A stretch of 64,000 bases of DNA, from NCBI GenBank assembly GCA_048938385.1, contig JBHLMG010000009.1, positions 6,620-70,619 on the forward strand, read 5' to 3'. The position numbers and the translations under genes were made by a program. The notes under the pieces were generated by a model. That model was given only the letters and a program-made list of their open reading frames with translations, searched no databases and had not been told where the DNA came from. The DNA is from Promethearchaeota archaeon (GTDB lineage: Archaea; Asgardarchaeota; Hermodarchaeia; Hermodarchaeales; Hermodarchaeaceae). Below, in pieces: positions 45,832 through 63,964 of the stretch (its first letter is position 1; each line of letters opens with the position of its first letter).

Positions 45832-45837
45832 GAGAAA

Positions 45838-46173
45838 ATGCAAGCGCTTGATACGATTGGTGTTCCACTTTCTGGGTTCCTTGCTGTCGCGGTCATCCTG
45901 TATGTCATTGGCATCTATGGGATGGCGACGAAACGTAATATGATCAAGTTCCTCATTTCACTGGAATTACTCCTTGATGGAGCGCATTTGAACTTCATCG
46001 TCTTTGCCACTATCTGGTCGGGTGGGTATATCGACCTGATGGTCCAAGCAATCGTCATCGCAAGTATTTGTATCGGCGGTGGAATCATCGCAATTGGGCT
46101 TGGATTCATCATTAGTGCTTACAATAAATTCGGAACGCTGGATGTCCGAAAACTCAACAAACTGCGTCATTAA
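45838..46173 (+). CDS. NuoK / MrpC-type subunit
   Basis: Three TM helices are present. KRNMIKFLISLELLLDGAHLNFIVFA contains the conserved membrane Glu context. Confidence 0.8.
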   Translation: MQALDTIGVPLSGFLAVAVILYVIGIYGMATKRNMIKFLISLELLLDGAHLNFIVFATIWSGGYIDLMVQAIVIASICIGGGIIAIGLGFIISAYNKFGTLDVRKLNKLRH

Positions 46174-46193
46174 CCCTGGGGTGAACGAGAAAA

Positions 46194-48344: not shown

Positions 48345-48355
48345 GGTGACACAAA

Positions 48356-49864: not shown

Positions 49865-49880
49865 TGGAGGTTGAAATGAG

Positions 49881-51461
49881 ATGGCTATCGGAATAAATGA
49901 ATGGATTCAACTCATCCCCCTCTGGTTACCTCTCGTCGGCGCACTCTTCCTCGCGCTCATCGGTCGACTCACAAAAGAACGAAACAAAGTGCTCCTTGGG
50001 GCAATCTCTGTCGTAATTTTGTTCATTGCCCTCTGGTTCCTCATTTCACCCTTTCCGCCCTTTCAAGGACTCTACTTCCAGCTCGTCAACGCTGGTTTCA
50101 CTCCTATTGATATCGTCTACTTCGTGACAACGCCACTGGACCCAAGCATAGGAGCCGCCTTCTTGCGAATCGACATTCTCTCTGTCTTCATGTCTGTCAT
50201 CTTCATATTCTTAGGCTTCTTCGTCGCCCTCTACTCCATTAAGTACATGGAACATGACACTCGGTTATCCATCTACTATGCCCTTCTCCTCACACTCGTT
50301 GGAGGAATGGTGGGGGTCACCATGGCAGGCGATTTCTTCACATTGTTCATCCTTTGGGAAACGATGTCAATAAGCAGCTATGTTTTAGTCGCCTTCCGGA
50401 AAGACGAAGCAGAACCTCTTGAAGCCGGCATCAAGTACCTCTTTCTTAGCGCTGTGGGTTCCACGCTCATCCTCTTCACCATGTCACTTCTCTACGGGCT
50501 CACAGGCACTTTGAATATCTACCAAATCGGTCCAGCACTTTCTTTGATCGTTGGAGGCGCCACTCCTGGTTCTCCAATCCAGGGCCTTCTCCTCATCACC
50601 ATCGTTGGTCTCATCATCGGGTTCGGCGTCAAAGCGGCAATTGCTCCACTTTCCACCTGGCTTCCAGACGCCCATCCTGCTGCTCCTAGTGGCATCAGTG
50701 CCATGCTCAGCGGCGTCGTCATCATGACAGGTGCTTATGCTATTATTCGCACACTTATCCTCTTCTATAATCCCGCGGACTTTCCCTACTATGGGGCCGT
50801 AGTCAGCTGGTTTGCCCTCTTCACCATGATCTATGGAAACCTCATGGCACTGACACAAAAGGATCTGAAACGGCTTCTAGCCTATTCAACTATAGTAAAT
50901 GTCGGTTACATCATCTACGGGTTCAGTATTGCGATGATGCAGGTAGCTCAGCCTGCCCAACTCACCTCCGTCACAGGAAGCCTGTTCCACATTACAGCCC
51001 ATATGCTCTCAAAGGGCATGCTCTTCTTGATCTCAGGAATTTTCTTACACTCTCTACATACCCGGGATCTCGATAAACTCCGCGGCGTAGGTCGTAAAAT
51101 GCCACTGACCATACTCTGTTTGACGATTGGTGCTCTGTCCCTTGCAGGGGTACCTCCCCTCATCGGATTCTATAGCAAATTCTTCATCATTTGGGGCGCC
51201 ATCCAAGCAGGTGCATACATTGCCACAATCATCCTGGTGCTCATGAGCGCGTTCAGCGTAGTCTATTACTTACGCATTATCCAAGTCCTCGTCTTCGCCG
51301 AGCCCAGCCCTGAGGCTGCCACCGTCAAACCCACACACCCAATCCTTCTATTTGTTATCAGCGTACTCACAATCTTCATCATCGGTATCGGGCTGTTTCC
51401 CGGCTTCTTCATTGAAGTAGCCGAATTTGCCGCTCAAGGTGCTCTTGGGCTGCTTCCCTAA
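49881..51461 (+). CDS. NuoN-type antiporter-like subunit
   Basis: FILWETMSISSYVLVAF, EAGIKYLFLSAVGS, PLSTWLPDAHPAAPSGISAMLSG and LLAYSTIVNVGYI are present. Confidence 0.8.
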   Translation: MAIGINEWIQLIPLWLPLVGALFLALIGRLTKERNKVLLGAISVVILFIALWFLISPFPPFQGLYFQLVNAGFTPIDIVYFVTTPLDPSIGAAFLRIDILSVFMSVIFIFLGFFVALYSIKYMEHDTRLSIYYALLLTLVGGMVGVTMAGDFFTLFILWETMSISSYVLVAFRKDEAEPLEAGIKYLFLSAVGSTLILFTMSLLYGLTGTLNIYQIGPALSLIVGGATPGSPIQGLLLITIVGLIIGFGVKAAIAPLSTWLPDAHPAAPSGISAMLSGVVIMTGAYAIIRTLILFYNPADFPYYGAVVSWFALFTMIYGNLMALTQKDLKRLLAYSTIVNVGYIIYGFSIAMMQVAQPAQLTSVTGSLFHITAHMLSKGMLFLISGIFLHSLHTRDLDKLRGVGRKMPLTILCLTIGALSLAGVPPLIGFYSKFFIIWGAIQAGAYIATIILVLMSAFSVVYYLRIIQVLVFAEPSPEAATVKPTHPILLFVISVLTIFIIGIGLFPGFFIEVAEFAAQGALGLLP

Positions 51462-51498: not shown

Positions 51499-53016
51499 TC
51501 ACTCTTTCTTCGTATTAGGCGATTTCAACCACCAATAAGTATGAGATTTCGTATCTGCAAGTTCAAATCCTAACTCGTTAAGTTTTGTTCGAATACCATC
51601 GGCTTCTTGGTATTTGTTTTCCGCCCGAAGTTGAGCACGTTGTTGGAGTAAAGCTTCTATTAGTTGCTTTATCACAGGATCTATCTCGCTATCGATTTCT
51701 CGTTGGTAGAGGTCCCCAAACAGAATGATTCCTATCTTCGAAAAGAACGCAAGCAATGCTTGAGCAGAATTTGAACTTACAGCTGATGGTGTTTCCAACT
51801 GTCCTTGGATTCTGTTCACTAATCGAAAAAGGGTATTAATTGCTCGCCCCGTGTTAAAATCATCCAGTAAGGCTTCTTCTATAGCTACCTCTACTTCTTG
51901 GAATGAAGTATCCTGTTCAATAGTTTTCTCAGAGGGTTCTGCGAATTCAGCAAGTGCACGAAGATGGACGAGAACTTTCCGTAACCGTTCGACTTGTTTA
52001 CGAACGCGTTTAAGCTCAGCTTCTTTAAAGGTCAAGGGTTTCCGATAGTGCATTGAAAGTAAGTAAAGCCGCAATGTCGCTGCTCCAAACCGGTTCACAG
52101 CCTCTCGCACGGTGATCAGATTTCCTACCGACTTGGACATTTTCTCTCCATCGAGTTTCAGATGGCGAACATGCATCCAATAACGAACATACGGCTTCTC
52201 GTTTGCTGCTTCACTTTGAGCGATTGAATTCTCATGATGCGGAAAGATATTATCCTCACCACCCCCCGAAATATCTAGTGTATCTCCCAGATACTTTTTC
52301 GCCATAGCACTGCATTCAAGGTGCCAGCCTGGGCGTCCTGGACCCCACGGACTCCACCAGAAAGGCTCATCAGGTTTCGCCTGCTTCCAAAGGACAAAAT
52401 CCCCCACCTGATCCTTATCGTACTCGTCTTTGTCAACCCGTCCACTTGCCCCTGCCTGAAGCTTCTGAGGATCAATCCCTGCAAGGCGACCGTACGCAGG
52501 GAATCTGCTTATCCGAAAGTACACCCCGTCGTCTGCTTCATAAGCAACTCCTTTCTCTAGAAGAGTTTGAACTAAGTGGATCATCTCTTGTATGTGCTGT
52601 GTTGCGATAGCATAAGTAGAGGGATCTGCAATACCTAGTAGCTGTCGATCCATGTAGTAATTCCTGGTTTGACGAGTGACTAGTTGTTGGAAGGCTTCAC
52701 CGCTGGCTTGAACGCGATTCAAGATGTTGTCATCGACGCTGATGTCTGTCACATTCGAGATGTGCTTGACTTCATAGCCAAGATACTGAAGAAAACGTTC
52801 AACCACATCCCAGAATATGTAAGTCCGTGCATGCCCTATGTGCATCAAGTAGTTAACTGTCAACCCACAGGTATACATACGAATCTTCCCAGGCTCAATT
52901 GGTGTGAATCTCTCCTTTTGCTTCGTCAGAGTATTGTAAATTCTAAGTGTTGATCGTCGGTTCCATTCGCTCGTTCTTGGATGAAGGGATGTTGGAGGAT
53001 TCCGCTTCGATGTCAT
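51499..53016 (-). CDS. cysS: Cysteine--tRNA ligase
   Basis: YTCGLTVNYLMHIGHARTY is the HIGH motif, GGEDNIFPHHENSIAQSEA follows, and KMSKSVGN is the KMSKS motif. Confidence 0.9.
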   Translation of the reverse strand: MTSKRNPPTSLHPRTSEWNRRSTLRIYNTLTKQKERFTPIEPGKIRMYTCGLTVNYLMHIGHARTYIFWDVVERFLQYLGYEVKHISNVTDISVDDNILNRVQASGEAFQQLVTRQTRNYYMDRQLLGIADPSTYAIATQHIQEMIHLVQTLLEKGVAYEADDGVYFRISRFPAYGRLAGIDPQKLQAGASGRVDKDEYDKDQVGDFVLWKQAKPDEPFWWSPWGPGRPGWHLECSAMAKKYLGDTLDISGGGEDNIFPHHENSIAQSEAANEKPYVRYWMHVRHLKLDGEKMSKSVGNLITVREAVNRFGAATLRLYLLSMHYRKPLTFKEAELKRVRKQVERLRKVLVHLRALAEFAEPSEKTIEQDTSFQEVEVAIEEALLDDFNTGRAINTLFRLVNRIQGQLETPSAVSSNSAQALLAFFSKIGIILFGDLYQREIDSEIDPVIKQLIEALLQQRAQLRAENKYQEADGIRTKLNELGFELADTKSHTYWWLKSPNTKKE

Positions 53017-53283
53017 GAGTACAAACCTCCGATGTCATTACTAGATACGGAATAATTACTACCTAGTAAACTACCATATAGTTGGAATAAGTATTGAGAA
53101 ACTAAAATGGAGTACGGCGTCACCGAAGGGCTAGTGTTGGCAAACTAAATACCCCATGGTATTCACCAACCCAGAGAGAGTTCCTGTTTATACATAAATG
53201 TTATGTGCTCAGTAGTTATCAGAGCCCAAATAAGAGGAAGCCTTTTTTACCCACATAGTTACTGATGTACCTCCATTCCAAGA

Positions 53284-55239
53284 ATGAATACAGAGTTAAT
53301 GGTGAAAGCCGTGTCACCAATGCTGTCAGCGAAAATGAGCAGTTTTATTGCGATCACACTAGATTTTGATGTTGACTCAGCACTTCGCCTTATTGCCCAA
53401 ACTGGACTCGCTCATTTTTCAGACATCAAACAAAGCAGTCGCAATCTTTCACAAGGCCTAGAACCTGTGGAACCTTCAGAACGTTTCTATTATCTTTCCA
53501 ATCTTCTAACCCGCACAACTACCCTCATCAATGATATGAAGGTCAATCGCGGTGGTAAAATTAAAAATCCTCTAAAGGTCCCTGAAATCCCTGAAGACAG
53601 CTATTTAGAATCCATCGAAACGAAACTTAAGAAAATCGAAGATGAATTCGAGGGCCATACTCGTAGCTTAGAAATAGCTGCACGGAAAGAGGATAAAGCT
53701 TCCAAAAAAGAAGCTAAAAAACATATCAAAGAATTAACCGAAGAGAAACGTCTGGAGCTATTAGGCTGGGAAGAACTACTCAAACGTGAACACAGCTTGG
53801 AAGAGACTAAGACGCTCTTTTACAAAACAAAACGAACCTACATCATGTATGGCTGGATTCCCACTAAGAAAATTAAATCTCTGGAGAAAGCTATTGCGCA
53901 ACAAAAACAAGTCTCCCTTTCCATTGAATTCGAAGCACATAAAGACAAACCAGAATCCGGTCACTATCCAGCTGATGTTGGTCCTCTCGAAGGGGAAGTT
54001 GCTCCAGAAGAACCAATTGCACCCCCGACAAAACAAACAAATCCCCGTTTTCTCCGATCCTTCCAAAACCTTACAAACGCCTTCGGATTACCCAACCACC
54101 GTGAAATTGACCCCGCTTGGTTCATGGCACTCGGATTCCCCATAATCTTCGGCCTTATGTTTGGCGACATCGGACATGGATTACTCCTCTTCGGTTTTGC
54201 TATGATTGGTATGATAGCAAAACGCCGCAATGTTGACGCTGGTGAAATGATCAATTACTTCATTCAAGGATCTGGGCTCATCGCACTCATCGCTCTTGTC
54301 TCGGTCTTTTTTGGAGTATTATACGGTGAATTTCTTGGTATCGATATCACTTACCTTCCCATCTACCAGGCACTCAAATACTCACCCTTCGGGCAAGCAA
54401 TGAAAAATGTCCTAGTCAACCTTTTTCTCTTCTTCGACTTTGATGGTGGAGTAAATTGGTTCCTCGACCCGCATAGTCCTTACAACCTCTGGATCCTCGG
54501 TGATCCTCATGGTCACCCCACCCCTATCTGGTTCAGCGCCTTCGAAATGCCTGCTAACCTCCCCGCCAACATCGCCAATCCTACCTGGATCCTTTTTGTC
54601 CTCAGCATCATTATCGGCTTCATCCACCTAAGCATTGCCATTGGGTTCGATGCCATCAACAAGCTTCGCCACCGTGACTGGAAACACGCCATCTTCGGTC
54701 CCATCATCTGGCTCTATTTCCTATGGGGACTTGCCTTTATGATCTTTCAATTTGGAATTAACTTCATGGCTTGGCCACTTATTGAAATGCTCATCGCGCT
54801 CATCCTCCCCGCTGTCATCATGTTCCTCGGAGGCATGGTCGCCTTCGGGTTCATGGATGGCTTTATGGAAGGTCTCGAGCGTCTTATCGAGAGCATCAGT
54901 AACACCATCAGTTACTCTCGAATTCTTGCCCTCAACATGGCACATGCAGGCTTCGCTAAAACCTTCATCTTTCTCGCAGGCTTTACAGGAGCTGTTGAGC
55001 TTTTTAACATCCTCGAACAACTCTTCCCCGCTGGACAACTCAATTTCGGAACCTTCCTTACATTTATTGGCATGATCATTCTTGGCACTGTCTTCGTCCT
55101 CCTCATGGAAGGCCTCCTCTCGTTCATCCATACCCTTCGTCTCCACTGGGTGGAAGCTTACCTGAAATTCTACGCAGGGACCGGCTACGAGTACAAACCT
55201 CTCACCCTACCACAAAAATGGACGACAACGCCTACATAA
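53284..55239 (+). CDS. atpI: A/V-type ATPase subunit I (a-subunit, stator/ion channel)
   Basis: A ~250-aa soluble, charged coiled-coil N-terminal half is followed by a polytopic C-terminal half with YSRILALNMAHAGFAKTF and RLHWVEAYLKFY, the conserved Arg-containing helix region. It lies directly upstream of the proteolipid gene. Confidence 0.85.
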   Translation: MNTELMVKAVSPMLSAKMSSFIAITLDFDVDSALRLIAQTGLAHFSDIKQSSRNLSQGLEPVEPSERFYYLSNLLTRTTTLINDMKVNRGGKIKNPLKVPEIPEDSYLESIETKLKKIEDEFEGHTRSLEIAARKEDKASKKEAKKHIKELTEEKRLELLGWEELLKREHSLEETKTLFYKTKRTYIMYGWIPTKKIKSLEKAIAQQKQVSLSIEFEAHKDKPESGHYPADVGPLEGEVAPEEPIAPPTKQTNPRFLRSFQNLTNAFGLPNHREIDPAWFMALGFPIIFGLMFGDIGHGLLLFGFAMIGMIAKRRNVDAGEMINYFIQGSGLIALIALVSVFFGVLYGEFLGIDITYLPIYQALKYSPFGQAMKNVLVNLFLFFDFDGGVNWFLDPHSPYNLWILGDPHGHPTPIWFSAFEMPANLPANIANPTWILFVLSIIIGFIHLSIAIGFDAINKLRHRDWKHAIFGPIIWLYFLWGLAFMIFQFGINFMAWPLIEMLIALILPAVIMFLGGMVAFGFMDGFMEGLERLIESISNTISYSRILALNMAHAGFAKTFIFLAGFTGAVELFNILEQLFPAGQLNFGTFLTFIGMIILGTVFVLLMEGLLSFIHTLRLHWVEAYLKFYAGTGYEYKPLTLPQKWTTTPT

Positions 55240-55254
55240 CCCACGTGACCAATT

Positions 55255-58200
55255 ATGCTCCAACAACTCCTCCTTAACATGGGTCAAGTCTACACCGCAT
55301 TTGGTGCTGTTCTCGCGGCTGGACTCGGAGCTGCAGGAGCTGCCATAGGCATCGGCTACAGTGGAAGCGCCATGATTAGCGCGGTAGCTGAAAAACCTCA
55401 ATCCTTCAGTAAAAGCATGATCACAGTGGTTCTTGCTGAAGCTCTCGCTATCTATGGACTCCTCGCCAGTTTCATGCTTCTTATGCGCATCGGGACAATC
55501 ACTAACGAAGCCCAAGGCCTCGTCGCTCTTGGTGCTGGACTGGCCATCGGTTTATCGTGCATTGGTGCTGGCATCGGTATCGCACGAGCAGGTAGCGCTA
55601 TGGCGACAGGCACCGCAGCTGCCCCCGAAACTTTCAGCAAAGCCCTCGTCTCCGTCGTCCTCGCTGAGGCCCTTGCTATCTATGGGCTTCTCACTAGCTT
55701 TATGCTTCTTATGCGCGTCGAAACGGCATCCTACATCGGACAAGGTCTGGTAGCAATCGCCGCAGGGTTAGGCATTGGGTTAGCAGCCCTCGGTGCTGGC
55801 GTCGGTATATCAAAAACTGGAGCAGCTCTCAACAAAGCCCTAGCTACTGCTCCTGAAACCTTCAGCAAAGGCTTAGTAGGCGTCGTGTTAGCCGAAGCCC
55901 TGGGTATCTACGGCTTGCTCTCGAGTTTCATGCTGCTCATGCGCATTGAAACCGTCACACTCCAAAGCCAAGGATTCATAGCAATCGCTGCTGCCTTCGG
56001 TGTAGGACTGGCTGCCCTTGGTGCTGGCATTGGTATCGCGTCGAGCGGGGCCTCGTTATCAGAAAGCCTGACCAAACGCCCAGAAATCTTCAGTAAGGGT
56101 TTGGTCAGCGTCGTGTTAGCCGAAGCCCTAGGTATCTACGGCTTGCTCTCGAGTTTCATGCTGCTCATGCGCATTGAAACCGCTACAGCAATCGCTCAAG
56201 GACTAGCTGGAATTGGTGCTGGATTAGCTGTCGGAATCGCAGGTTTTGGGGCTGGTATCGGTATTGCCCAAGCCGGTGGCGCACTCAGCAAAGCCCTCGT
56301 CGAAGCCCCTGAAGCCTTTAGTAAGGGTTTGGTCAGCGTCGTGTTAGCCGAAGCCCTGGGTATCTATGGGCTCTTAGCGAGCTTCATGTTGCTCATGCGC
56401 ATCGAATCCGTCGCAATAGCGGCACAAGGATACCTTGCGGTTGCAGCAAGTCTAGGTGTAGGTTTAGCAGCATTCGGTGCTGGTATCGGTATCGCCTCCG
56501 CAGGAGCAGCCTTATCACAAAGCCTTGTCGATCGTCCTGAAGTATTCAGCAAGGGCTTGGTCAGCGTCGTGTTAGCCGAAGCCCTGGGTATCTATGGGCT
56601 CTTAGCGAGCTTCATGTTGCTCATGCGCATCGAATCCGTCACTGAAATCGGTCAAGGACTAGTGGGTTTATCTGCTGCACTTGCCATCGGACTTGCTGCA
56701 ATTGGTGCAGGGTTTGGCATTGCCAAGGCAGGCGCGTCTATTAATAGAACACTTGTTGTCGCTCCTGAAGCCTTCAGTAAGGGTTTGGTCAGCGTCGTGT
56801 TAGCCGAAGCCCTGGGTATCTACGGGTTGTTAGCCAGCTTCATGTTGTTGATGCGTATTGAGTCGGTCACAGGGATAGGTCAAGGCTTCATGGGAATGGC
56901 AGCCGCTATCTCGGTTGGTATTGCTGGTATTGGCGCGGGTATCGGTATAGCTTTTGCAGGCCAGGCACTTTCGCAAAGCCTTGGTGAGCGGCCTGAAATC
57001 TTCAGTAAAGGTCTAATCGGCGTCGTTCTCGCTGAAGCTCTCGCCATCTATGGTTTACTGGCAGGTTTCATGTTGCTGATGCGTATCGACACGATTAACA
57101 TCGATATCAGTATAGGTATGAGTCAAGGCGTCGTCGGAATTGGCGGGGGCATCGCAATTGGGCTCGCGGCATTTGGTGCGGGAATTGGCATTGCCCAAGC
57201 AGGCGCAAGCATGTCTCGCACGATCGTTCACGCTCCTGAAACCTTCAGTAAAGGCCTCGTCAGCGTAGTGTTAGCAGAGGCACTTGGCATCTATGGATTA
57301 CTAACGAGTTTCATGTTGTTAATGCGAATAGATTCTGTAACTCAAATCGGTCAAAGTATCATTGCAATTGGTGCTGGACTTGCCATTGGCTTGGCCGCGT
57401 TAGGTGCTGGTCTTGGTATTGCGGCCGCTGGCGCTGCCTTGTCACGAAGTCTCGCAGCACGACCTGAAGTTTTCAGTAAGGGTTTGGTCAGCGTCGTGTT
57501 AGCCGAAGCCCTGGGTATCTATGGGCTCTTAGCGAGCTTCATGTTGCTCATGCGCATCGAATCCGTGGTTGATTTGACTCCTGGGTTACTTGCCATAGGT
57601 GCAAGTGTTAGTATCGGCCTCGCTGCCATTGGGGCGGGTATTGGTATTGCATCAAGTGGATCTGCTTTATCCGAAGGATTAGTGCATCGCCCTGAGATTT
57701 TCAGTAAAGGCTTGGTAGCCGTTGTTTTAGCCGAAGCCCTTGGAATTTACGGACTACTTTCAAGCTTCATGCTTCTGATGCGAATAGAAACCGCAACAGC
57801 AATTGGTCAAGGCATGGTTGGCATTGGAGCTGGCGCAGCCATTGGGCTGGCAGCAATTGGTGGAGGTGTCGGAATTGCTTTATCTGGTGCTGCACTCAGC
57901 CACAGTCTTGTAGATGCTCCTGAAGCTTTCTCCAAGGGCTTGGTGAGTGTTGTACTGGCTGAGGCGCTTGGGATTTATGGCCTATTGATGAGTTTTATGT
58001 TAATTATGCGAATTGATACAGTGACCGATCCCAGTCAGGGGTTGATGGCTCTTGGCACAGCAGTAGCGGTGGGATTTGCGTGTTTTGGAGCTGGGTTTGG
58101 TATTGCTCACGCAGGTTCGGCTCTCGCTAGGACTATCGCCTCGGAGCCAGGCTCTTTCAGTAAGGGGTTGGTGGCGGTGGTGTTGGCGGAGGCCCTTGGG

Positions 58201-58695
58201 ATATATGGATTGCTGGTGGGATTTATGGTGGTTATGCGTGTGGAATCGGCCCTATTGTTAGCACAAGGATGGCTAGCAATTGGTGCAGGGTTGGCCATTG
58301 GTATAGCGGGAATTGGGGGCGGTTTGGGTATTGGCTATTCGGGTGGAGCACTGTGTACAAGTATTCGATCGGCCCCGGAGACTTTCAGTAAGGGGTTGGT
58401 GGCGGTGGTGTTGGCGGAGGCCCTTGGGATATATGGATTACTGACATCATTTATGTTAGTAATGCGGTTGGATGCAATTGGGGATATTGGTGCATTTATC
58501 GGGGTTGCTGCAGCTGCAACGGTCGGATTGGGGACTTTGATGGCAGGGATTGCGATTGGTTGGGCTGGGGCAGGATTAATTGGTGGGATTGCGAAGAAAC
58601 CGGGGATTTTTAGCAAATCGATGGTGCCAGTTGTGCTTGCCGAGGCGCTTGCTATTTATGCGTTGTTAGTAGCCTTTATGCTTATAATGCGTATT
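55255..58695 (+). repeat. 15 in-frame tandem repeats of ~228 bp (coding), with patches of perfect DNA identity
   Basis: Unit boundaries are 55255, 55492, 55720, 55948, 56176, 56404, 56632, 56860, 57088, 57331, 57559, 57787, 58015, 58243 and 58471. Identical 81-bp blocks lie at 56331-56411, 56559-56639 and 57486-57566. Confidence 0.9.
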
Positions 58696-58698
58696 TAA
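55255..58698 (+). CDS. atpK: A/V-type ATPase proteolipid subunit K/c consisting of 15 covalently fused hairpins (30 predicted TM helices)
   Basis: A 1147-aa ORF made of 15 tandem units (79, 7x76, 81, 5x76, 75 aa). Each unit has the form G-rich TM1 / xPExFSKG loop / VVLAEALGIYGLLxSFMLLMRI. All 15 retain the Glu in VLAEAL. Confidence 0.9.
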   Translation: MLQQLLLNMGQVYTAFGAVLAAGLGAAGAAIGIGYSGSAMISAVAEKPQSFSKSMITVVLAEALAIYGLLASFMLLMRIGTITNEAQGLVALGAGLAIGLSCIGAGIGIARAGSAMATGTAAAPETFSKALVSVVLAEALAIYGLLTSFMLLMRVETASYIGQGLVAIAAGLGIGLAALGAGVGISKTGAALNKALATAPETFSKGLVGVVLAEALGIYGLLSSFMLLMRIETVTLQSQGFIAIAAAFGVGLAALGAGIGIASSGASLSESLTKRPEIFSKGLVSVVLAEALGIYGLLSSFMLLMRIETATAIAQGLAGIGAGLAVGIAGFGAGIGIAQAGGALSKALVEAPEAFSKGLVSVVLAEALGIYGLLASFMLLMRIESVAIAAQGYLAVAASLGVGLAAFGAGIGIASAGAALSQSLVDRPEVFSKGLVSVVLAEALGIYGLLASFMLLMRIESVTEIGQGLVGLSAALAIGLAAIGAGFGIAKAGASINRTLVVAPEAFSKGLVSVVLAEALGIYGLLASFMLLMRIESVTGIGQGFMGMAAAISVGIAGIGAGIGIAFAGQALSQSLGERPEIFSKGLIGVVLAEALAIYGLLAGFMLLMRIDTINIDISIGMSQGVVGIGGGIAIGLAAFGAGIGIAQAGASMSRTIVHAPETFSKGLVSVVLAEALGIYGLLTSFMLLMRIDSVTQIGQSIIAIGAGLAIGLAALGAGLGIAAAGAALSRSLAARPEVFSKGLVSVVLAEALGIYGLLASFMLLMRIESVVDLTPGLLAIGASVSIGLAAIGAGIGIASSGSALSEGLVHRPEIFSKGLVAVVLAEALGIYGLLSSFMLLMRIETATAIGQGMVGIGAGAAIGLAAIGGGVGIALSGAALSHSLVDAPEAFSKGLVSVVLAEALGIYGLLMSFMLIMRIDTVTDPSQGLMALGTAVAVGFACFGAGFGIAHAGSALARTIASEPGSFSKGLVAVVLAEALGIYGLLVGFMVVMRVESALLLAQGWLAIGAGLAIGIAGIGGGLGIGYSGGALCTSIRSAPETFSKGLVAVVLAEALGIYGLLTSFMLVMRLDAIGDIGAFIGVAAAATVGLGTLMAGIAIGWAGAGLIGGIAKKPGIFSKSMVPVVLAEALAIYALLVAFMLIMRI

Positions 58699-58740
58699 GA
58701 TTTTGACTGTTTGTACTTTTCTCACGGCTTTTTGTTTATA
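58699..58740 (+). terminator. T-rich tract after atpK (archaeal oligo-T terminator candidate)
   Basis: gattttgactgtttgtacttttctcacggctttttgttt follows immediately after the TAA. Confidence 0.3.
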
Positions 58741-58801
58741 CAGTTGTGTATTACATTCGCAGTAATGATCACCAAGCTGACTGTATTCACTAGCATACCT
58801 C

Positions 58802-59743
58802 TCATTTTTTTTCTTGAGGAGCAGCGGTTAGAAGGATCGTAGGCGGAGAGGTTTCTCCATGTTTGTGAATCGCTGCAATAGCTTCATGGAATTCTTCGAC
58901 AGCATGTTTTCGGTCAGGTTTGGGGATTTTTTGTGAATCAAGCCAAAAAAGCGGAGGTGTGGCGGCCAACCGGAAATCATGGATAGAGCTTTTCGCTATG
59001 GTATATCCTGCCTTCTCAACTAAGATTCGTAATTCATCTTCCGAAAGAAGCGGCAGATCACCTTGTTTATGTTTGATCCGAAGGTTATACAGCTGAAGGT
59101 GTGCTTCCTGAGCCTTGGTTTTTGCATAGGGTAGAGATTCAGCAATGCTCATGGTTCCGTGAGGACCGATGATTCGTGCCATTTGACGAAGAGCATCAAC
59201 GAATACAATGGGAGAGGATAGGTTTCGTATACTATGAATATTGAGACACATAAGCCCTGTTTTCGATTTGAGAGGAGGGGAGAGAATATCACCGCGAATT
59301 CCTAAAGGATTGAGCTGTAATTTCTTCGCAGTGATGATCCAGTTCTGCCACCAGTCAAATCGTCCTCCTCCGTTCATTAAATCAATCCCCAATGTTAATG
59401 CCCCCTGTAAAGCTGCCGCTATAGTTGTATAACCTCTTCCACATCCCACATCTAACACTACGGCATCTTTTGCAATCTCAAGTTTTCTAATCAGAAGCAG
59501 CCTTTCTTTACCAATATCTGAGGTTTTGTACAGGTCTCGATATGAAAGGGTAGTTTTATCGATTAAATCTGCGACAAAATCGGAGCAAATCCTTAAGCGA
59601 GTCATGAATTCTTTTGGACTAAGACCGAAAAATGAACGATATGGGGGGAGTTCTATATCCATTTGATGCAAATCCGCTAGTCGTTGTGCCGCTTGCATAC
59701 AAAGGAGTGCTAAGTTAATGTTCATTATCAGACTTCTCATCAA
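58802..59743 (-). CDS. Class I SAM-dependent methyltransferase
   Basis: VLDVGCGRGYTT is motif I and GIDLMNG is motif II. The length and layout are typical of the family. Confidence 0.7.
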   Translation of the reverse strand: MMRSLIMNINLALLCMQAAQRLADLHQMDIELPPYRSFFGLSPKEFMTRLRICSDFVADLIDKTTLSYRDLYKTSDIGKERLLLIRKLEIAKDAVVLDVGCGRGYTTIAAALQGALTLGIDLMNGGGRFDWWQNWIITAKKLQLNPLGIRGDILSPPLKSKTGLMCLNIHSIRNLSSPIVFVDALRQMARIIGPHGTMSIAESLPYAKTKAQEAHLQLYNLRIKHKQGDLPLLSEDELRILVEKAGYTIAKSSIHDFRLAATPPLFWLDSQKIPKPDRKHAVEEFHEAIAAIHKHGETSPPTILLTAAPQEKK

Positions 59744-59870
59744 ACTGATTGAATTAGTGTAGTAATCAACCCATCTCTACGGTAGGTATTTCATTGCATC
59801 ACAAAAAGTATATCCTCTTACTCTTTATGATACGAGAAAGAATTATTGCTCCTATTCTTAAGGAGGCGTA

Positions 59871-60479
59871 TTGATGCAAGCTAGACCCACAAAACAACAA
59901 CATCCAGAATTTAACCTAGAAGCCCTTCTATCTCTGCTCGGTCTTCTTCTCGGTTTCCTATTCATTGTTGTCATTTATGTTCTTGAGAATCCTCAGGAAG
60001 TTTTTTCAGCGTGGGGCTTCCCACTCATTTTCTATCTCCTGATATGCTACGCCATTGGGCTTACTAACATTGCCCTTATCATCAGCCATGAAGTTAATCT
60101 ATACTTGTTGAATAGACTAGCCACCCTCGATCCAGAAAAAATCCCGGCTGCAAAATTTACAGAACTTAGTCAAAACATTCAACGCACTCTTCGACAAAGT
60201 ATTAAGCTATTCACATTCTTCATTTTTGGATTTGGCTTATTTCTAATTAATTTGGCGGGTTTCGCAGCAGCCAAAATTTTCTACTCCTTTTTTGCTCTCT
60301 TAGAGAGCTTAGTCTTCATACTCTGGAGTCCCTTAGCAGTTCTTCCTGTCCGGTTTATTGTTATGTTCTTAGTTCAATTCGTTCTGATTATACCTTTTGC
60401 AAGATACCAGGGTCTTATATGGGATTCTTACAAAGCGGTTGAACAAATCCAACTCCAAAGTATCAATTCAGAACAATAA
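59871..60479 (+). CDS. Hypothetical membrane protein (about 5 TM)
   Basis: Hydrophobic segments include LLSLLGLLLGFLFIVVIYVL, LIFYLLICYAIGLTNIALII and FTFFIFGFGLFLINLAGFAAA. Confidence 0.5.
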   Translation: MMQARPTKQQHPEFNLEALLSLLGLLLGFLFIVVIYVLENPQEVFSAWGFPLIFYLLICYAIGLTNIALIISHEVNLYLLNRLATLDPEKIPAAKFTELSQNIQRTLRQSIKLFTFFIFGFGLFLINLAGFAAAKIFYSFFALLESLVFILWSPLAVLPVRFIVMFLVQFVLIIPFARYQGLIWDSYKAVEQIQLQSINSEQ

Positions 60480-60556
60480 TGAACTTCTGGGAGTTTCGAA
60501 AGGGTCAAGAACGGTTTCAGCTAAAGTAAATGTGTTAACATAAGGGTGTGTCTTCC

Positions 60557-61594
60557 ATGACTGAGGATCGCTATAGTCGATTTCGCGTACTAGATGGGAT
60601 TGGTGGGAATGGGCTTCAGCGTTTGCGTAATGCTCGAGTAGCCGTAATAGGAATTGGTGGGCTCGGGAGCGTGTCCGCTCGGCAATTAGCATCTCTGGGT
60701 GTAGGATTCCTCCGCATTGTTGACCGAGACATTGTAGAATTATCGAATTTACAGCGTCAACTTCTTTACACGGTAAAGGATGTTGGTAAACCCAAGGTTG
60801 AAGTGGCAACAAGACGGTTAAACGAGTTGAATCCCGATGTCACCGTTGAACCGATGGCTCTTTCAGTAACCGAAGTCACAGCCGATCGTGTTGTGGAGGG
60901 GATGGATGTTGTGTTGGATGGGTTGGATAGCTTTAAGCCACGATATGCATTGAATCGGGCCTGTGTACGTAACAAGATACCTTATGTGTTTGCCGGAGCG
61001 CTTGCTGCAGTTGGGAATTTGACAACGATCATTCCTGGACGCACGGCATGTTTAGAGTGTATCTTCGGTGGGATTGGTGAGGATCAACCGACATGTGCGA
61101 CAGTTGGTATCTATCCCACGGTCGTAGGGGTCATTGCAAACCTTCAGGTCCAAGAAGCACTTCACCTTATCTTAGGGCGTTCCCCAATGCTTGCTAATGA
61201 ATTACTCATGTTTGATATTGAGCGGTTCCGCCTAGACCAGATCCCAATCCAGTCCCATGAGAATTGTCCAGTGTGTGGTAAAAATGCTGATCTTAGAGTC
61301 CCTGAATTAACTTCTATATTGGAAATCACAGAGTTATGTACTGAAGAGACTTTTCTTGTACACTCACATGAGGCTATTTCCATTGATATCTTAAAGGCTG
61401 CAGAAATTCTTAGTAAATACTACCCTGTTATTGCTCAAAGTACGCTTGGTGTTCAGGTACAATTTACGCAGGATGTAGAGGTTAGTATCGTCGGTGAAGG
61501 AAATCTTCTGATTAAAGGCATTAAATCACCGAAAACCGCAGAAGAAATTTACAATCAAATCCTCAGAGAAATAAAGGCTGCAGTACTTCCTTAA
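60557..61594 (+). CDS. ThiF/MoeB/UbaA-type E1-like adenylyltransferase with a ~100-aa extra C-terminal domain
   Basis: RYSRF...VAVIGIGGLGS is the nucleotide loop. It is followed by RIVDRDIVELSNLQRQ, the catalytic-Cys context CATVGIYPTVVGVIANLQVQEAL, and the zinc pairs CLEC + CPVC. The start is set at the ATG at 60557. Confidence 0.8.
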   Translation: MTEDRYSRFRVLDGIGGNGLQRLRNARVAVIGIGGLGSVSARQLASLGVGFLRIVDRDIVELSNLQRQLLYTVKDVGKPKVEVATRRLNELNPDVTVEPMALSVTEVTADRVVEGMDVVLDGLDSFKPRYALNRACVRNKIPYVFAGALAAVGNLTTIIPGRTACLECIFGGIGEDQPTCATVGIYPTVVGVIANLQVQEALHLILGRSPMLANELLMFDIERFRLDQIPIQSHENCPVCGKNADLRVPELTSILEITELCTEETFLVHSHEAISIDILKAAEILSKYYPVIAQSTLGVQVQFTQDVEVSIVGEGNLLIKGIKSPKTAEEIYNQILREIKAAVLP

Positions 61595-61818
61595 AATAAG
61601 GCGTATACTATGATTGCTGAAGTGGAAATAACTCAAAACTAGAGATGCTATTTTATCAGCTTCTTCAGTAGTCGTAATTCTTAGAGGAACTCGCGTTGTA
61701 AGAAGAAGGGCTGAGATCAGGTTCAGTAAATTAAGGTCTATGGATGGCCCCGTATTCTCATTGTAGCTGCTCAAAAGTTTTAACACAGATGGGTTAGGTG
61801 TTTGTGAGGTAATTGCCT

Positions 61819-62181
61819 ATGACAACTGATGTATTATATTCTGGAGCCAGTGTGCTCATTTCTATTAAGGCTACATATCAGGTGCGAGATGAAAGTGGGT
61901 TAGTAACAGTGGAAAAAACCTCTGGAGCGCTTGTCTTAACTGAAAAGGAGATAGTGTTTCTGGAGGTCAAAGGCGTTTTTAAGAAGGAGAGGAAACGATT
62001 GCATAGTTTTTCTGTAAAAAACTTAGTCGGGTATAGCTATGAGCAATGGGGTAGTGGGGATGTCTCGTTCTATTTGATGTATGAAGACGAGTCAGGAACA
62101 AGACATAATCTCATCTACAGTTGTAGCAAGAAAAACTATGAGAAGTTCATTGGGAAAATTAAGGAGCATGGCTTTTTTTAG
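61819..62181 (+). CDS. Small PH-like (bacterial-PH/GRAM-like) domain protein
   Basis: The pattern GALVLTEKEIVFLEVKGVFKKERKRLHSFSVKNLVGYSYE...VSFYLMY... followed by a C-terminal helix KKNYEKFIGKIKE fits a PH-like beta-sandwich plus helix. This is inferred from the sequence pattern only. Confidence 0.4.
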   Translation: MTTDVLYSGASVLISIKATYQVRDESGLVTVEKTSGALVLTEKEIVFLEVKGVFKKERKRLHSFSVKNLVGYSYEQWGSGDVSFYLMYEDESGTRHNLIYSCSKKNYEKFIGKIKEHGFF

Positions 62182-62199
62182 ACTTAACGCGCTTATTTG

Positions 62200-62586
62200 T
62201 TATTTTTGTGAGGTTATTCGTGCGTTGAAGCTTTTCCGTGCCTCAATGTTAGCGAAGGGTTCGAGGTGCACGACAGTATACTCCTCGACCTCTTCCTCGT
62301 TGTCGCTGTGTTTTTCATGAAGAATTAGGTAGGTGCTAACACCTTCTCTCACGGAAAGATAGGCCATGCGTTTGTCAAGAGTTAACAGAGACCAACCTTG
62401 CTGTTTGGCATATCCAATGATTTCTTCATCGGTGTGTCCAATGAGATCAGGATAATCGTGAACTGAGTGACACTGCCAGTTTTCAGATTGTAATAGTTGG
62501 TAGAGTTGTCCACTAAGAGTTTTCGAGGATGTACTCAAATTCTCATCAAAGATAATTTCTTTTCGTGTCACAGGGAGCACCTTCAA
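62200..62586 (-). CDS. DUF5615-type PIN-like (Mut7-C-like) domain protein
   Basis: IIFDENLS...HSVHDYPDLIGHTDEEIIGYAKQQGWSLLTLDKRM follows the DUF5615 consensus (lLlDENl....l...G..v.hv...gl.g..D.eIl..A...gr.lvT.DkDF). Confidence 0.5.
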   Translation of the reverse strand: MKVLPVTRKEIIFDENLSTSSKTLSGQLYQLLQSENWQCHSVHDYPDLIGHTDEEIIGYAKQQGWSLLTLDKRMAYLSVREGVSTYLILHEKHSDNEEEVEEYTVVHLEPFANIEARKSFNARITSQK

Positions 62587-62593
62587 ATTTGAT

Positions 62594-63643
62594 TTATAGA
62601 ATAAGAACTCGAAGTATGATATTTGGATCTAGCTGGTCAGCTTTACCGTTCATTAAGGCTTTGAGATTAAGTATCTCATACCATTTCAGGTTGAGGTATC
62701 CAAGCACAATGCCAAAATGGAATGGGTATCCAAGAAGTGCATCGACACTTGTTCTGCGGATTTCCTCATGAAAGACCTTTTCAAAGGTGTACAAATTCTG
62801 GTATTGCTCATAGGCTTCCCAACTTTGACCAATCATGTATCCATAGCTGCTTTCTTGGAGTTTTTGAACACGCTCTTCGAAGTTTCTTGTATGAATGGCT
62901 TCTTTGCAAAGGGTCAGTGGAAGCCGGTGTTCGACTTGGAGAAGGAGGTTTTCTGCATCCCTGGAATCTATCCCCAGAAAGTGGGTACGAAGGGTAGTCA
63001 TGAAGTTAATGAGATCAATTTCTATGCCTACTAGTTTAGATGTAACTTCTCGATCAAGACCGTTCAGTTTATTAGCTTCGCGGTAGAGGTTTTCAAGAAT
63101 TACAGCATCAATTGCCTGCTCAACAACAACGAGTCGTCCAGTTTTTTCATATTGCGGTAAAAGATCTACAACAAGTTGTTGGAAATATTGGTCAGGGAGG
63201 TTAGTGACAAGTTCTCTCAAGTCTTTTGCATTTAAAAGTTTGAGAAGCACTTCGGTCGTGAAGGGTGACACAGGGATGAGTAGACGCTCTGCAGTTTCTT
63301 GATCTTTTTCGGTTACAAAAAGGCGAAGTAGTGGTTTCACAACTTCACGTTGGAATTTTCGATTGATCCAATTCATTATTGGCTGCAACGCTTTAGGGAT
63401 ATCTTCGTAAATTTCTGTGAGTACACGGTTGAAGTCTAACTTGAGAGCTTGTTCCACCTCAATTGGAGAAGCCTTCTCGTCGAAATCTTTTATGATTTCA
63501 GAGTAACTAGTTGCATCCAAAACTCGGAGGGCGGCGTTCATATCTCGGGCGCCAAGAAGCGCATCCCAATGTTCCTTGGTTAACATGTCAGCTTTAAATC
63601 CACGAATTTTCGCGTTAATGAAGCTGTACTTCGCGACAGACAT
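62594..63643 (-). CDS. atpC: A/V-type ATPase subunit C (eukaryotic V0 d homologue)
   Basis: YSFINAKIRGFKADMLTKEHWDALL...LDATSY... and a repeated helical-bundle layout through ...YLNLKWYEILNLKALMNGK fit the AC39/subunit C family. The length is 349 aa. Confidence 0.8.
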   Translation of the reverse strand: MSVAKYSFINAKIRGFKADMLTKEHWDALLGARDMNAALRVLDATSYSEIIKDFDEKASPIEVEQALKLDFNRVLTEIYEDIPKALQPIMNWINRKFQREVVKPLLRLFVTEKDQETAERLLIPVSPFTTEVLLKLLNAKDLRELVTNLPDQYFQQLVVDLLPQYEKTGRLVVVEQAIDAVILENLYREANKLNGLDREVTSKLVGIEIDLINFMTTLRTHFLGIDSRDAENLLLQVEHRLPLTLCKEAIHTRNFEERVQKLQESSYGYMIGQSWEAYEQYQNLYTFEKVFHEEIRRTSVDALLGYPFHFGIVLGYLNLKWYEILNLKALMNGKADQLDPNIILRVLIL

Positions 63644-63649
63644 TGTGCC

Positions 63650-63964
63650 TTACCTTTTTCCTTCTCTTGGTAACTCTTCTTCTTTTACTCCACTTTCTTT
63701 CTTTTGTCCAAAAAGACCAGCCAAATAGAAAAGAGTACAGAACATCATGAGGGTTCCAATTATCGCACCTATCATAGCCCCTAATATATCGCCACCAGGT
63801 CCCCAAATAGCAGGCCCAATAATCCATCCCACAAAAGCAAAGATGATTATTTCACATGCAATCGAGGTATAACGGAAGGTTCGACCCATTGAAACCGGTG
63901 GTTCATCGCTCATTCCTGTCACCATTGTTATTGTAAGGGAGAGTGCAGCCAGTTTCGAATTCAA
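63650..63964 (-). CDS. Small 2-TM protein, possibly AtpZ/'ATPase gene 1'-like
   Basis: The TM hairpin is IACEIIIFAFVGWIIGPAIWG / ILGAMIGAIIGTLMMFCTLFYLAGLF, followed by a charged tail. It ends 6 nt upstream of atpC. The track start is TTG, and internal Met codons are possible starts. Confidence 0.35.
   Translation of the reverse strand: MNSKLAALSLTITMVTGMSDEPPVSMGRTFRYTSIACEIIIFAFVGWIIGPAIWGPGGDILGAMIGAIIGTLMMFCTLFYLAGLFGQKKESGVKEEELPREGKR

What the first reader, a model, noticed from the sequence alone, without database searches (positions are those of the whole stretch)
55255..58698. A complete A/V-ATPase rotor ring in one gene: 15 covalently fused proteolipid hairpins, all with intact ion-binding carboxylates
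Translation of the ORF gives 15 consecutive units of 79, 76x7, 81, 76x5 and 75 aa. Each unit consists of a Gly/Ala-rich TM1 (GAGIGIAxAG), a loop (xPExFSKG) and TM2 (VVLAEALGIYGLLxSFMLLMRI). That makes 30 predicted TM helices. The essential Glu in VLAEAL is present in 15 of 15 hairpins. The gene starts 16 nt after atpI, which is the normal atpK position.

Fused c subunits are known. V-type and Pyrococcus enzymes have 2 hairpins, Methanocaldococcus has 3, and Methanopyrus kandleri has 13, which is the maximum I am aware of. The short fusions typically lose carboxylates. Here the hairpin count exceeds 13 and no site is lost.

If one polypeptide makes the ring, the stoichiometry is hard-wired at 15 ions per rotation, or 5 ions per ATP with an A3B3 head. 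That is at the high end of known rotary ATPases, and it would allow ATP synthesis at very low ion-motive force, which is plausible for an energy-starved anaerobe.

The Glu is followed by Ala rather than Thr/Ser, and a TM1 Gln occurs in only a few hairpins. I therefore tentatively expect H+ rather than Na+ coupling.
Basis: partly seen in the sequence, partly recalled or inferred. Interest (0 to 1): 0.9.

Follow-up and report, generated by a model that had tools for sequence, protein, structure and literature searches.

The report
Fifteen-hairpin single-gene ATP synthase rotor
An Asgard archaeon (Hermodarchaeia) encodes its ATP synthase rotor ring as one 1147-residue protein of 15 fused proton-binding hairpins, the largest such fusion found in public data, which probably fixes the enzyme at 5 protons per ATP.

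Summary
ORF 55255..58698 (+) encodes 1147 aa made of 15 tandem proteolipid hairpins (79, 76x7, 81, 76x5, 75 aa). Pfam ATP-synt_C matches 15 times, and all 15 hairpins carry VVLAEAL. The gene starts 15 nt after an intact subunit a/I gene.

It is not an assembly artefact. The units share only about 62% nt identity. At least seven other species-level genomes carry the same 15-unit gene with unit-by-unit orthology, and dN/dS is below 0.04.

Searches of 5.8 billion and 1.84 billion proteins found nothing with more than 15 hairpins. The next largest have 13 (Methanopyrus and others).

No hairpin has the Na+ motif: the Gln position is Ile and Glu+1 is Ala. H+ coupling is therefore predicted.

AlphaFold gives 30 helices (pLDDT 91, pTM 0.87). 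Hairpin pairs superpose on known V-type c subunits at 1.4-2 Å.

Ring closure by a single chain could not be tested, so 15 sites and 5 H+/ATP remain an inference.

New here: related genomes carry an 8-hairpin gene at the same locus, and 3- and 5-hairpin relatives share the same first and last hairpins. The fusion therefore grew by internal duplication.

This is a new variant of the known Methanopyrus-type monomeric rotor. I found no description of it in the searchable literature.

The parts
53284..55239 (+). atpI: stator subunit a/I of an A/V-type ATPase, 651 aa. It carries the essential Arg (SYSRILALNMAH) and the C-terminal HTLRLHWVE motif.
   Evidence: Pfam V_ATPase_I E = 6.3e-55. The alignment to mammalian V-ATPase subunit a places these motifs opposite SYLRLWALSLAH and HALRLHWVE.
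55255..58698 (+). atpK: 1147-aa proteolipid made of 15 fused helical hairpins (stop codon included).
55255..55491 (+). Hairpin 1 (aa 1-79, Glu62). This is the 'head' unit, which has orthologues as the first unit of the 3-, 5- and 8-hairpin relatives.
55492..55719 (+). Hairpin 2 (aa 80-155, Glu138)
55720..55947 (+). Hairpin 3 (aa 156-231, Glu214)
55948..56175 (+). Hairpin 4 (aa 232-307, Glu290)
56176..56403 (+). Hairpin 5 (aa 308-383, Glu366)
56404..56631 (+). Hairpin 6 (aa 384-459, Glu442)
56632..56859 (+). Hairpin 7 (aa 460-535, Glu518)
56860..57087 (+). Hairpin 8 (aa 536-611, Glu594)
57088..57330 (+). Hairpin 9 (aa 612-692, Glu675). It is 81 aa long because of a 5-aa longer linker. That extra length is 4-5 aa in most orthologues and absent in P0005.
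57331..57558 (+). Hairpin 10 (aa 693-768, Glu751)
57559..57786 (+). Hairpin 11 (aa 769-844, Glu827)
57787..58014 (+). Hairpin 12 (aa 845-920, Glu903)
58015..58242 (+). Hairpin 13 (aa 921-996, Glu979)
58243..58470 (+). Hairpin 14 (aa 997-1072, Glu1055)
58471..58695 (+). Hairpin 15 (aa 1073-1147, Glu1130). This is the most divergent 'tail' unit, which has orthologues as the last unit of the 3-, 5- and 8-hairpin relatives.
62594..63643 (-). atpC: A-type subunit C (V-type d, AC39), the rotor socket that sits on the proteolipid ring. It lies on the opposite strand, 3.9 kb downstream.
   Evidence: Pfam vATP-synt_AC39 E = 1.4e-54. The same arrangement is seen in orthologous loci.

Best explanation
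atpK encodes the membrane rotor of an A/V-type ATP synthase of a Hermodarchaeia (Asgard) archaeon as one polypeptide of 15 covalently linked helical hairpins. Each hairpin has an inner Gly/Ala-rich helix (TM1), a cytoplasmic PExFSKG loop and an outer helix (TM2) with a mid-membrane Glu. The chain most likely closes head-to-tail, with hairpin 15 packing against hairpin 1, into one ring of 30 helices with 15 H+-binding carboxylates. The ring rotates against the Arg of subunit a (atpI) and drives the A3B3 head through subunit C/d. That gives a hard-wired 15 H+ per turn, or 5 H+ per ATP, which favours ATP synthesis at low proton-motive force. Shown here: the architecture, the domain identity, the conservation, the intact carboxylates, the absence of the Na+ motif, the intact stator Arg and the confident all-helical model. 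Inferred: ring closure by exactly one chain, H+ as the coupling ion, and the direction of operation (synthesis).
For: There are 15 PF00137 stretches and 15 VVLAEAL motifs. The Glu aligns with the essential Glu of yeast V-ATPase subunit c (vvlaealgiygl opposite LIFAEVLGLYGL). AlphaFold2 gives pLDDT 91.2, pTM 0.87 and 30 helices. Consecutive hairpin pairs superpose on yeast and human c and on E. hirae NtpK with target TM-score 0.87-0.92 and rmsd 1.4-2.5 Å. atpI lies immediately upstream and has the essential Arg. The window contains no other c gene. The outer helix TM2, which must pass the same stator surface 15 times, is 85% identical among units, against 51% for TM1. Only 42% of codons are identical at identical residues, so this reflects selection on the protein rather than recent gene conversion. 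The 15-unit gene with the same spacing and 15 of 15 Glu occurs in seven further species-representative genomes and in several metagenome proteins. Unit i matches unit i across orthologues. dN is 0.065-0.10 with saturated dS. The Gln position of the Na+ motif is Ile and Glu+1 is Ala in all hairpins of all orthologues, whereas every other long fusion found has P-E-T. The neighbourhood encodes a complex-I/Fpo-like pump. A ring of 15 hairpins lies within the known range of 8-17 (PMC9171764).
Against: A high pTM is also compatible with a well-defined open arc. Close relatives have an 8-hairpin gene at the same locus with similar a and C/d subunits. So at least some rings in this family must be built from more than one chain, or ring size is far more plastic than assumed. 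There is no expression, proteomic or biochemical evidence. The A, B, D and F subunit genes are not in the window.
Confidence: 0.68

Rival explanations
1. The protein is a genuine 15-hairpin proteolipid, but the working ring is not one chain of 15 hairpins. It might combine with another c subunit encoded elsewhere (for example to reach 16, matching two copies of the 8-hairpin form), leave some hairpins outside the ring, or use two chains.
For: The 8-hairpin positional orthologues have interchangeable a and C/d subunits. The window AtpC is 73% identical to that of an 8-hairpin genome, but only 59-60% identical to those of other 15-hairpin genomes. Relatives with 2, 3 and 5 hairpins must oligomerise. 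Ring closure was not verified.
Against: The window and the orthologous loci contain no second c gene. All 15 units are equally conserved across species (88-95%), so none looks dispensable. A 30-hairpin ring would be far outside the known range of 8-17 c subunits. The 13-hairpin M. kandleri subunit K is a precedent deduced to form a monomeric rotor.
Confidence: 0.17
2. The polyprotein is cut after translation into smaller proteolipids (1-5 hairpins), which then assemble into a ring whose stoichiometry the gene does not fix.
For: The inter-hairpin linkers are conserved (MRI-E/D-S/T-V/A-T..GQG) and could in principle be a recognition site.
Against: The linkers are only about 6-8 residues between membrane helices on the outer face. 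AlphaFold models them as tight turns with high confidence. The distinct, position-specific identity of each unit is conserved across species, which would be pointless if the units were released as equivalent monomers. No such processing is known for multi-hairpin c subunits (established knowledge).
Confidence: 0.05
3. The 15 sites bind Na+ rather than H+, or the enzyme works mainly as an ATP-driven ion pump rather than a synthase.
For: Most archaeal multi-hairpin c subunits carry Na+ motifs. Ion specificity predicted from sequence is not infallible. The best matches among solved structures are eukaryotic V-ATPase pumps.
Against: Two Na+ ligands, the TM1 Gln/Glu and the Ser/Thr after Glu, are absent in 15 of 15 hairpins and in all orthologues. 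By the published rule, a site with any missing ligand is called H+ (PMC11738941). A high ion/ATP ratio disfavours pumping against a gradient. A complex-I-like H+ pump is encoded next door.
Confidence: 0.08
4. It is an assembly artefact (mis-counted repeats) or a decaying pseudogene.
For: One related assembly has a 12-N scaffold gap inside unit 4 that splits the gene. An 84-nt exact repeat exists between units 5 and 10.
Against: The units share only 49-79% nt identity, and the longest exact repeat (84 nt) is shorter than the k = 127-137 shown in related contig names. At least seven independent assemblies give the same 15 units with the same spacing. There are no stops or frameshifts, and dN/dS is below 0.04.
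Confidence: 0.02

Closest known systems
Methanopyrus kandleri A-ATPase subunit K (13-hairpin 'monomeric rotor'; Lolkema & Boekema 2003, as cited in PMC2359735)
   Same: One gene encodes enough hairpins for a whole ring. Every hairpin keeps its carboxylate. The gene is the atpK of an A-type ATPase.
   Different: It has 15 hairpins rather than 13. Identity is only 29-35%. The site is H+-type (I...A-E-A) instead of the full Na+ motif (Q...P-E-T). The host is a mesophilic Asgard lineage rather than a hyperthermophilic methanogen. Units are more similar within each protein than between the two, so the fusions arose independently. Here 3-, 5- and 8-hairpin forms also exist in the same family.
Eukaryotic V-ATPase proteolipid c (Vma3 / ATP6V0C) and Enterococcus hirae NtpK (two-hairpin subunits)
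   Same: These are the best sequence and structure matches. Two consecutive hairpins superpose with target TM-score about 0.9 and rmsd 1.4-2 Å. The A-E-x-L-G-x-Y-G-L motif is shared with eukaryotic c.
   Different: Those proteins have 2 hairpins, only one functional carboxylate per subunit, and rings built from about 10 separate chains. Here every hairpin is active and all are in one chain.
F-type c15 rings (for example Gloeobacter violaceus, listed with 15 c subunits in PMC7594442) and the c17 upper limit of known rings
   Same: The predicted number of ion sites per turn (15) and the ion/ATP ratio of 5 lie at the high end of the known range of 2.66-5.6.
   Different: Those rings are homo-oligomers of 15 separate single-hairpin subunits in F-type enzymes, and their stoichiometry is set by packing. 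Here it would be set by the gene.
8-hairpin atpK of sister Hermodarchaeia/Thorarchaeota genomes (P0007-P0015; loci L010, L011, L013)
   Same: Same locus and synteny, the same VVLAEAL site in every hairpin, and orthologous head (u1-u3/4) and tail (u5-u8, matching u12-u15) units. Identity is 64-67%.
   Different: Seven fewer internal hairpins and different linker insertions. It cannot form a ring of similar size from one chain.

Membership tests
A/V/F-ATPase proteolipid (subunit c/K, Pfam PF00137) | Sequence match to the ATP-synt_C profile above the curated threshold | tested here: met
   15 stretches, 717 bits against a cut-off of 24.
A/V/F-ATPase proteolipid (subunit c/K, Pfam PF00137) | [quoted passage not shown] | tested here: met
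   Glu is present in 15 of 15 units. It aligns to the essential Glu of yeast c TM4. There are 30 helices.
A/V/F-ATPase proteolipid (subunit c/K, Pfam PF00137) | Fold and inter-hairpin packing as in solved c rings | tested here: met
   Foldseek target TM-score 0.87-0.92, rmsd 1.4-2.5 Å to V-type c and NtpK chains. This is a predicted model, not an experimental one.
A/V/F-ATPase proteolipid (subunit c/K, Pfam PF00137) | Encoded with the other ATPase subunits, including a subunit a with the essential Arg | tested here: met
   atpI is 15 nt upstream and has the conserved Arg. atpC is in the window. atpE is in the orthologue's flank. A, B, D and F were not seen within the DNA available.
A/V/F-ATPase proteolipid (subunit c/K, Pfam PF00137) | Assembles into a rotating ring that translocates ions | not testable with these tools
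   This needs cryo-EM or biochemistry.
Monomeric multi-hairpin rotor (M. kandleri subunit K type) | A single ORF with a ring-sized number of hairpins (12 or more) | tested here: met
   15 hairpins. Conserved in at least 7 species.
Monomeric multi-hairpin rotor (M. kandleri subunit K type) | An ion-binding carboxylate retained in every hairpin | tested here: met
   15 of 15 here and in all orthologues.
Monomeric multi-hairpin rotor (M. kandleri subunit K type) | Descent from the same fusion event as the Methanopyrus gene | tested here: not met
   Identity is 29-35%. The site motif and loop differ. The unit series 3/5/8/15 within its own family shows an independent internal expansion. It therefore works like this type but is not an orthologue of it.
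Monomeric multi-hairpin rotor (M. kandleri subunit K type) | One chain forms the complete ring | not testable with these tools
This has not been shown experimentally for M. kandleri either (it was deduced from sequence).
Na+-binding c/K subunits (Mulkidjanian 2008 motif) | Gln/Glu in TM1 plus Glu-Ser/Thr in TM2 | tested here: not met
   The TM1 position (Glu-29) is Ile and Glu+1 is Ala in 15 of 15 units. The rule is as stated in PMC2359735 and PMC11738941.

The most novel reading that the evidence does not exclude
In Hermodarchaeia the rotor's ion/ATP ratio is written directly in hairpin copy number and has changed between close relatives. The same locus, with interchangeable stator (a) and socket (C/d) subunits, carries either an 8-hairpin or a 15-hairpin gene, both with every site active. 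If each chain closes on its own, near relatives run the same enzyme at 2.67 and at 5 H+ per ATP. That would be a natural, nearly two-fold gear shift produced by internal hairpin duplication. The milder version is a dimer of 8 (16 sites) against a monomer of 15.
Probability: 0.12. Interest if true: 0.85.

Novelty: new variant of a known kind. Interest (0 to 1): 0.66.

Why it matters
What sets c-ring stoichiometry, and whether it is fixed, is a central question in bioenergetics, because the ring sets the ion cost of ATP. A natural single-chain rotor with 15 active sites would be the largest covalent ring known and the highest predicted ion/ATP ratio of any A/V-type enzyme. It occurs in Asgard archaea, the closest prokaryotic relatives of eukaryotes, whose V-ATPase c subunit shares the A-E-x-L-G-x-Y-G-L site motif.

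Each hairpin has its own conserved sequence, so individual sites could be mutated one at a time in a native protein. Until now that has required engineered fusions.

The co-occurring 3-, 5-, 8- and 15-hairpin forms share head and tail units. The 8- and 15-hairpin genes also sit at the same locus with matching stators. Together they offer a natural series for testing how ring size is determined and tolerated.

The proteins are currently deposited as 'hypothetical protein' or as a generic proteolipid.

Tried and rejected
- **Model coordinates.** I looked for AlphaFold coordinates to measure ring closure. None are exposed, so closure stays untested. I ran no further search on the 8-hairpin protein, because without coordinates it could not separate an arc from a ring.
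- **Exact-sequence lookup.** Looking up the NCBI protein P0001 for more flanking DNA found nothing. I used orthologue loci instead.
- **P0006 (829 aa, 11 units).** It looked like an 11-hairpin intermediate. It is a 15-unit gene split by a 12-N scaffold gap.
- **P0130 (4485 aa).** This hit in the exhaustive search is a false positive, a repetitive surface protein with no unit-HMM hit.
- **Fusion of two 8-mers minus one unit.** I tested whether the 15-mer arose this way. Averaged unit-by-unit identities reject it in favour of an internal expansion between unit 3 and unit 12.
- **Hydropathy count of TM segments.** A simple threshold count was too noisy (67 fragments), so I used the DSSP helices of the model.
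- **RNA genes.** Rfam and tRNA scans of the window were empty.
- **Literature.** Seven searches found no description of a c subunit with more than 13 hairpins or of fused Asgard proteolipids. The library lacks most subscription journals, so this is not proof of absence.
Full report
**1. The observation**

The ORF at 55255..58698 (+) is real. It has an ATG start, encodes 1147 aa and has no internal stops. Cutting after each M-R-[I/V/L] gives 15 units of 79, 76x7, 81, 76x5 and 75 aa. The motif VVLAEAL occurs 15 times at spacings of 76x7, 81, 76x5 and 75. Pfam ATP-synt_C (PF00137) matches in 15 stretches (E = 1.4e-221), and the ORF just upstream (53284..55239) is V_ATPase_I. The intergenic spacer is 15 nt. 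The first ATG is the likely start: in one orthologue the second Met (M9) is Ile while M1 is kept, and AlphaFold begins the first helix at residue 9. The window has no other c-subunit ORF, no tRNA genes and no Rfam hits.

**2. Not an artefact or a pseudogene**

- The 15 units share on average 62% nt identity (range 49-79%) and 64% aa identity. The longest exact shared stretch is 84 nt, between units 5 and 10. That is shorter than the k-mers of 127-137 shown in the names of related contigs.
- A scan of one genome per GTDB species found six loci, from five distinct assemblies, with a complete gene of the same design. Each has 15 LAEAL motifs at spacing 76x7, 80/81, 76x5, 75. Two more loci are cut by contig ends. 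L001 and the gap-split L002 add two further assemblies. Metagenome proteins P0002-P0005 add further independent copies.
- Each unit of the window protein is most similar to the same-numbered unit of each orthologue. Same-numbered units are 80-90% identical and other pairs about 61%, with one exception in P0005.
- Between species dN is 0.065-0.10 while dS is saturated, so dN/dS is below 0.04. Per-unit conservation is uniform at 88-95%.
- The apparent 11-hairpin protein P0006 is a 15-unit gene interrupted by a 12-N scaffold gap in unit 4.

**3. What it is**

- The Glu of each unit aligns with the essential Glu of TM4 of yeast V-ATPase subunit c (vvlaealgiygl opposite LIFAEVLGLYGL). The best solved-structure matches by sequence are eukaryotic V-type c, c' and c'', followed by E. 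hirae NtpK and T. thermophilus subunit K.
- AlphaFold2, run on a 33-sequence alignment, gives mean pLDDT 91.2, pTM 0.87 and exactly 30 long helices in 15 hairpins joined by 1-8-residue turns.
- Foldseek superposes any two consecutive hairpins on V-type c chains and NtpK with target TM-score 0.87-0.92 and rmsd 1.4-2.5 Å. The predicted side-by-side packing is therefore that of a real ring protomer.
- AtpI keeps the essential stator Arg (SYSRILALNMAH opposite SYLRLWALSLAH) and the HTLRLHWVE motif.
- Subunit C/d (AC39) lies at 62594..63643 on the minus strand. In an orthologous contig atpE follows a few kb further on. The ATPase genes are therefore scattered, not in one operon.
- Upstream lie genes for a complex-I/Fpo-like pump: NuoB and NuoC, three NuoL/M/N-type antiporter subunits, and an FrhB/FpoF-like protein. 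NuoJ and NuoK domains were seen only in the orthologous contig L001.
- The organism is an Asgard archaeon. The exact protein is NCBI MFX1244557.1, 'hypothetical protein [Promethearchaeota archaeon]'. Relatives are labelled Hermodarchaeota or Hermodarchaeia.

**4. How it most likely works**

The outer helix (TM2), which carries the Glu and must slide past the same subunit-a surface once per hairpin, is 85% identical among the 15 units. The inner helix (TM1) is only 51% identical. At identical residues only 42% of codons are identical, so the uniformity is maintained by selection on the protein. A ring in which all 15 sites are used in turn predicts exactly this pattern.

For ion specificity, I aligned all hairpins of all multi-hairpin hits to one unit HMM. 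In this clade the canonical TM1 Na+ ligand position (29 residues before Glu, matching Q of the M. kandleri GIGQG) is Ile, and the residue after Glu is Ala. This holds in every hairpin of every orthologue. Every other long fusion found has P-E-T, and most have the Gln. By the published rule (PMC2359735, PMC11738941) the sites are H+-type.

With an A3B3 head, 15 sites give 5 H+/ATP. Known rings have 8-17 subunits, or 2.66-5.6 ions per ATP (PMC9171764).

The step from 'one gene' to 'one ring' is an inference.

**5. Is 15 the record?**

The word-indexed search of 5.8 billion clusters and the exhaustive phmmer search of 1.84 billion representatives returned 205 proteins. I counted their hairpins with an HMM built from the 15 units. 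The results were:

- 15 hairpins: only this clade.
- 13 hairpins: 12 proteins, from Methanopyrus and a group with an N-terminal extension that includes one labelled Nanobdellota.
- 12 hairpins: 11 proteins.
- Smaller forms: 10, 9, 8, 7 and 6 hairpins.
- More than 15 hairpins: none.

The literature available here still gives 13 as the maximum. Seven searches found no report of this protein or of fused Asgard proteolipids. The paper describing Hermodarchaeota mentions only that a V/A-type ATP synthase is present.

**6. New context: a hairpin-number series**

Nine database clusters and three species-representative genomes carry an 8-hairpin atpK of 630-644 aa. It is 64-67% identical to the 15-hairpin protein and has VVLAEAL in all 8 units. 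It sits in the same synteny: nuoN, cysS (minus strand), atpI, atpK, thiF ... atpC (minus strand).

Averaged unit-to-unit identities show the following correspondences:

- 15-mer units 1, 2 and 3 correspond to 8-mer units 1, 2 and 3.
- 15-mer units 12, 13, 14 and 15 correspond to 8-mer units 5, 6, 7 and 8.
- 15-mer units 4-11 all resemble 8-mer units 3/4.

The difference is therefore an internal expansion or deletion of seven units, not a head-to-tail fusion of two 8-mers.

A 5-hairpin protein (P0060) and 3-hairpin proteins with a large N-terminal domain (P0061, P0062) belong to the same family. They again have a first unit most like unit 1 and a last unit most like unit 15. Two-hairpin forms occur in other Promethearchaeota. 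A conserved head and tail across 3-, 5-, 8- and 15-hairpin forms fits a head-to-tail contact, between chains in the short forms and within the chain in the 15-mer. Both 3x5 and 5x3 would give 15 and 2x8 would give 16, but this is speculation.

The flanking genes do not separate 8- from 15-hairpin genomes:

| Gene | Pair compared | Identity |
|---|---|---|
| NuoN | L011 (8 hairpins) vs L001 (15 hairpins) | 86% |
| ThiF | L011 (8 hairpins) vs L005 (15 hairpins) | 89% |
| AtpC | window (15 hairpins) vs L011 (8 hairpins) | 73% |
| AtpC | window vs other 15-hairpin genomes | 59-60% |

The stator and socket proteins thus do not co-vary with hairpin number. That argues for similar ring sizes (16 against 15) rather than 8 against 15. 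It also leaves open the more radical reading given as the novel case.

**7. Verdict**

This is a functional, conserved, single-gene A-type rotor with 15 H+-type sites and the largest covalent proteolipid fusion in the public data searched. Conceptually it is a new variant of the Methanopyrus-type monomeric rotor. It arose independently, has a different ion site and more hairpins, occurs in a different lineage, and is embedded in a family with a graded series of hairpin numbers. It is not a new kind of machine. The main untested step is ring closure by exactly one chain.

Noticed in passing
L010, L011, L013 (match 6001-7863/7929) versus window 51499-63643: Related Hermodarchaeia genomes carry an 8-hairpin atpK at the same syntenic locus. 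Flanking-gene identities interleave the 8- and 15-hairpin genomes. AtpC falls into two deep types that do not follow hairpin number, which suggests recombination or gene replacement in this region.
   Followed up: partly
L006 (contig JABXGV010000028.1) and L010 (JABXGV010000060.1): MAG H02S_Hermod_124 contains both a 15-hairpin and an 8-hairpin locus. Each has its own cysS and atpI, and the two cysS copies are about 59% identical. This is probably a mixed bin rather than one genome with two ATPases.
   Followed up: partly
L002 5105-8490: In assembly GCA_012974965.1 the 15-unit gene is split into 298-aa and 829-aa calls by a 12-N scaffold gap inside unit 4. The 829-aa product appears in databases as an apparent 11-hairpin protein.
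   Followed up: yes
proteins P0016-P0059: Covalent multi-hairpin proteolipids are much more widespread than the literature suggests. They include 12-13-hairpin forms with an N-terminal extension whose first hairpin is Glu-to-Gln (one is labelled Nanobdellota), 12-hairpin 'Euryarchaeota' forms with 9-11 carboxylates, 6-hairpin forms fused to PKD domains in Thermoplasmatota, and a 10-hairpin F-like form in the bacterium Candidatus Vampirococcus lugosii.
   Followed up: partly
window 55255-58698, TM1 position 27 residues before each Glu: This position differs between units (Y, R, K, S, Q, S, K, F, Q, A, S, L, H, Y, W). In several units it is conserved across species: R/K in unit 2, K in unit 3, K/R in unit 7, H, Y and W in units 13-15. 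Basic residues at roughly the membrane depth of the Glu are unexplained.
   Followed up: partly
window 56176-56403 and 57331-57558: Units 5 and 10 share an 84-nt exact stretch even though overall unit divergence is about 62%. This looks like a local gene-conversion tract.
   Followed up: no
window 63650-63964 (-): A 104-aa ORF with a glycine-zipper-like two-TM region lies immediately upstream of atpC on the minus strand. Its Pfam hits are sub-threshold only. An orthologous contig has a 76-aa gene in the same place. It could be a small membrane subunit or an assembly factor of the ATPase.
   Followed up: partly
window 38778-51461: An energy-metabolism neighbourhood: HypD, an FrhB/FpoF-like protein, methylene-H4MPT dehydrogenase (Mtd), NuoC and NuoB on the minus strand, then three NuoL/M/N-type antiporter subunits. 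Aldehyde:ferredoxin oxidoreductase and an Fe-ADH lie at 34300-37413.
   Followed up: partly
window 53284-58698: For both subunit a and the proteolipid, the best solved-structure matches are eukaryotic V-ATPase subunits rather than bacterial or archaeal A/V-type ones. The A-E-x-L-G-x-Y-G-L site motif is shared with eukaryotic subunit c, which fits the Asgard affiliation.
   Followed up: no
window 58699-58760 and 53185-53200: T-rich tracts directly after the atpK stop look like an archaeal terminator. A TATA-like TTTATACATAAAT lies about 90 nt upstream of atpI. Together they suggest a two-gene atpI-atpK transcription unit. This comes from reading the sequence only.
   Followed up: no
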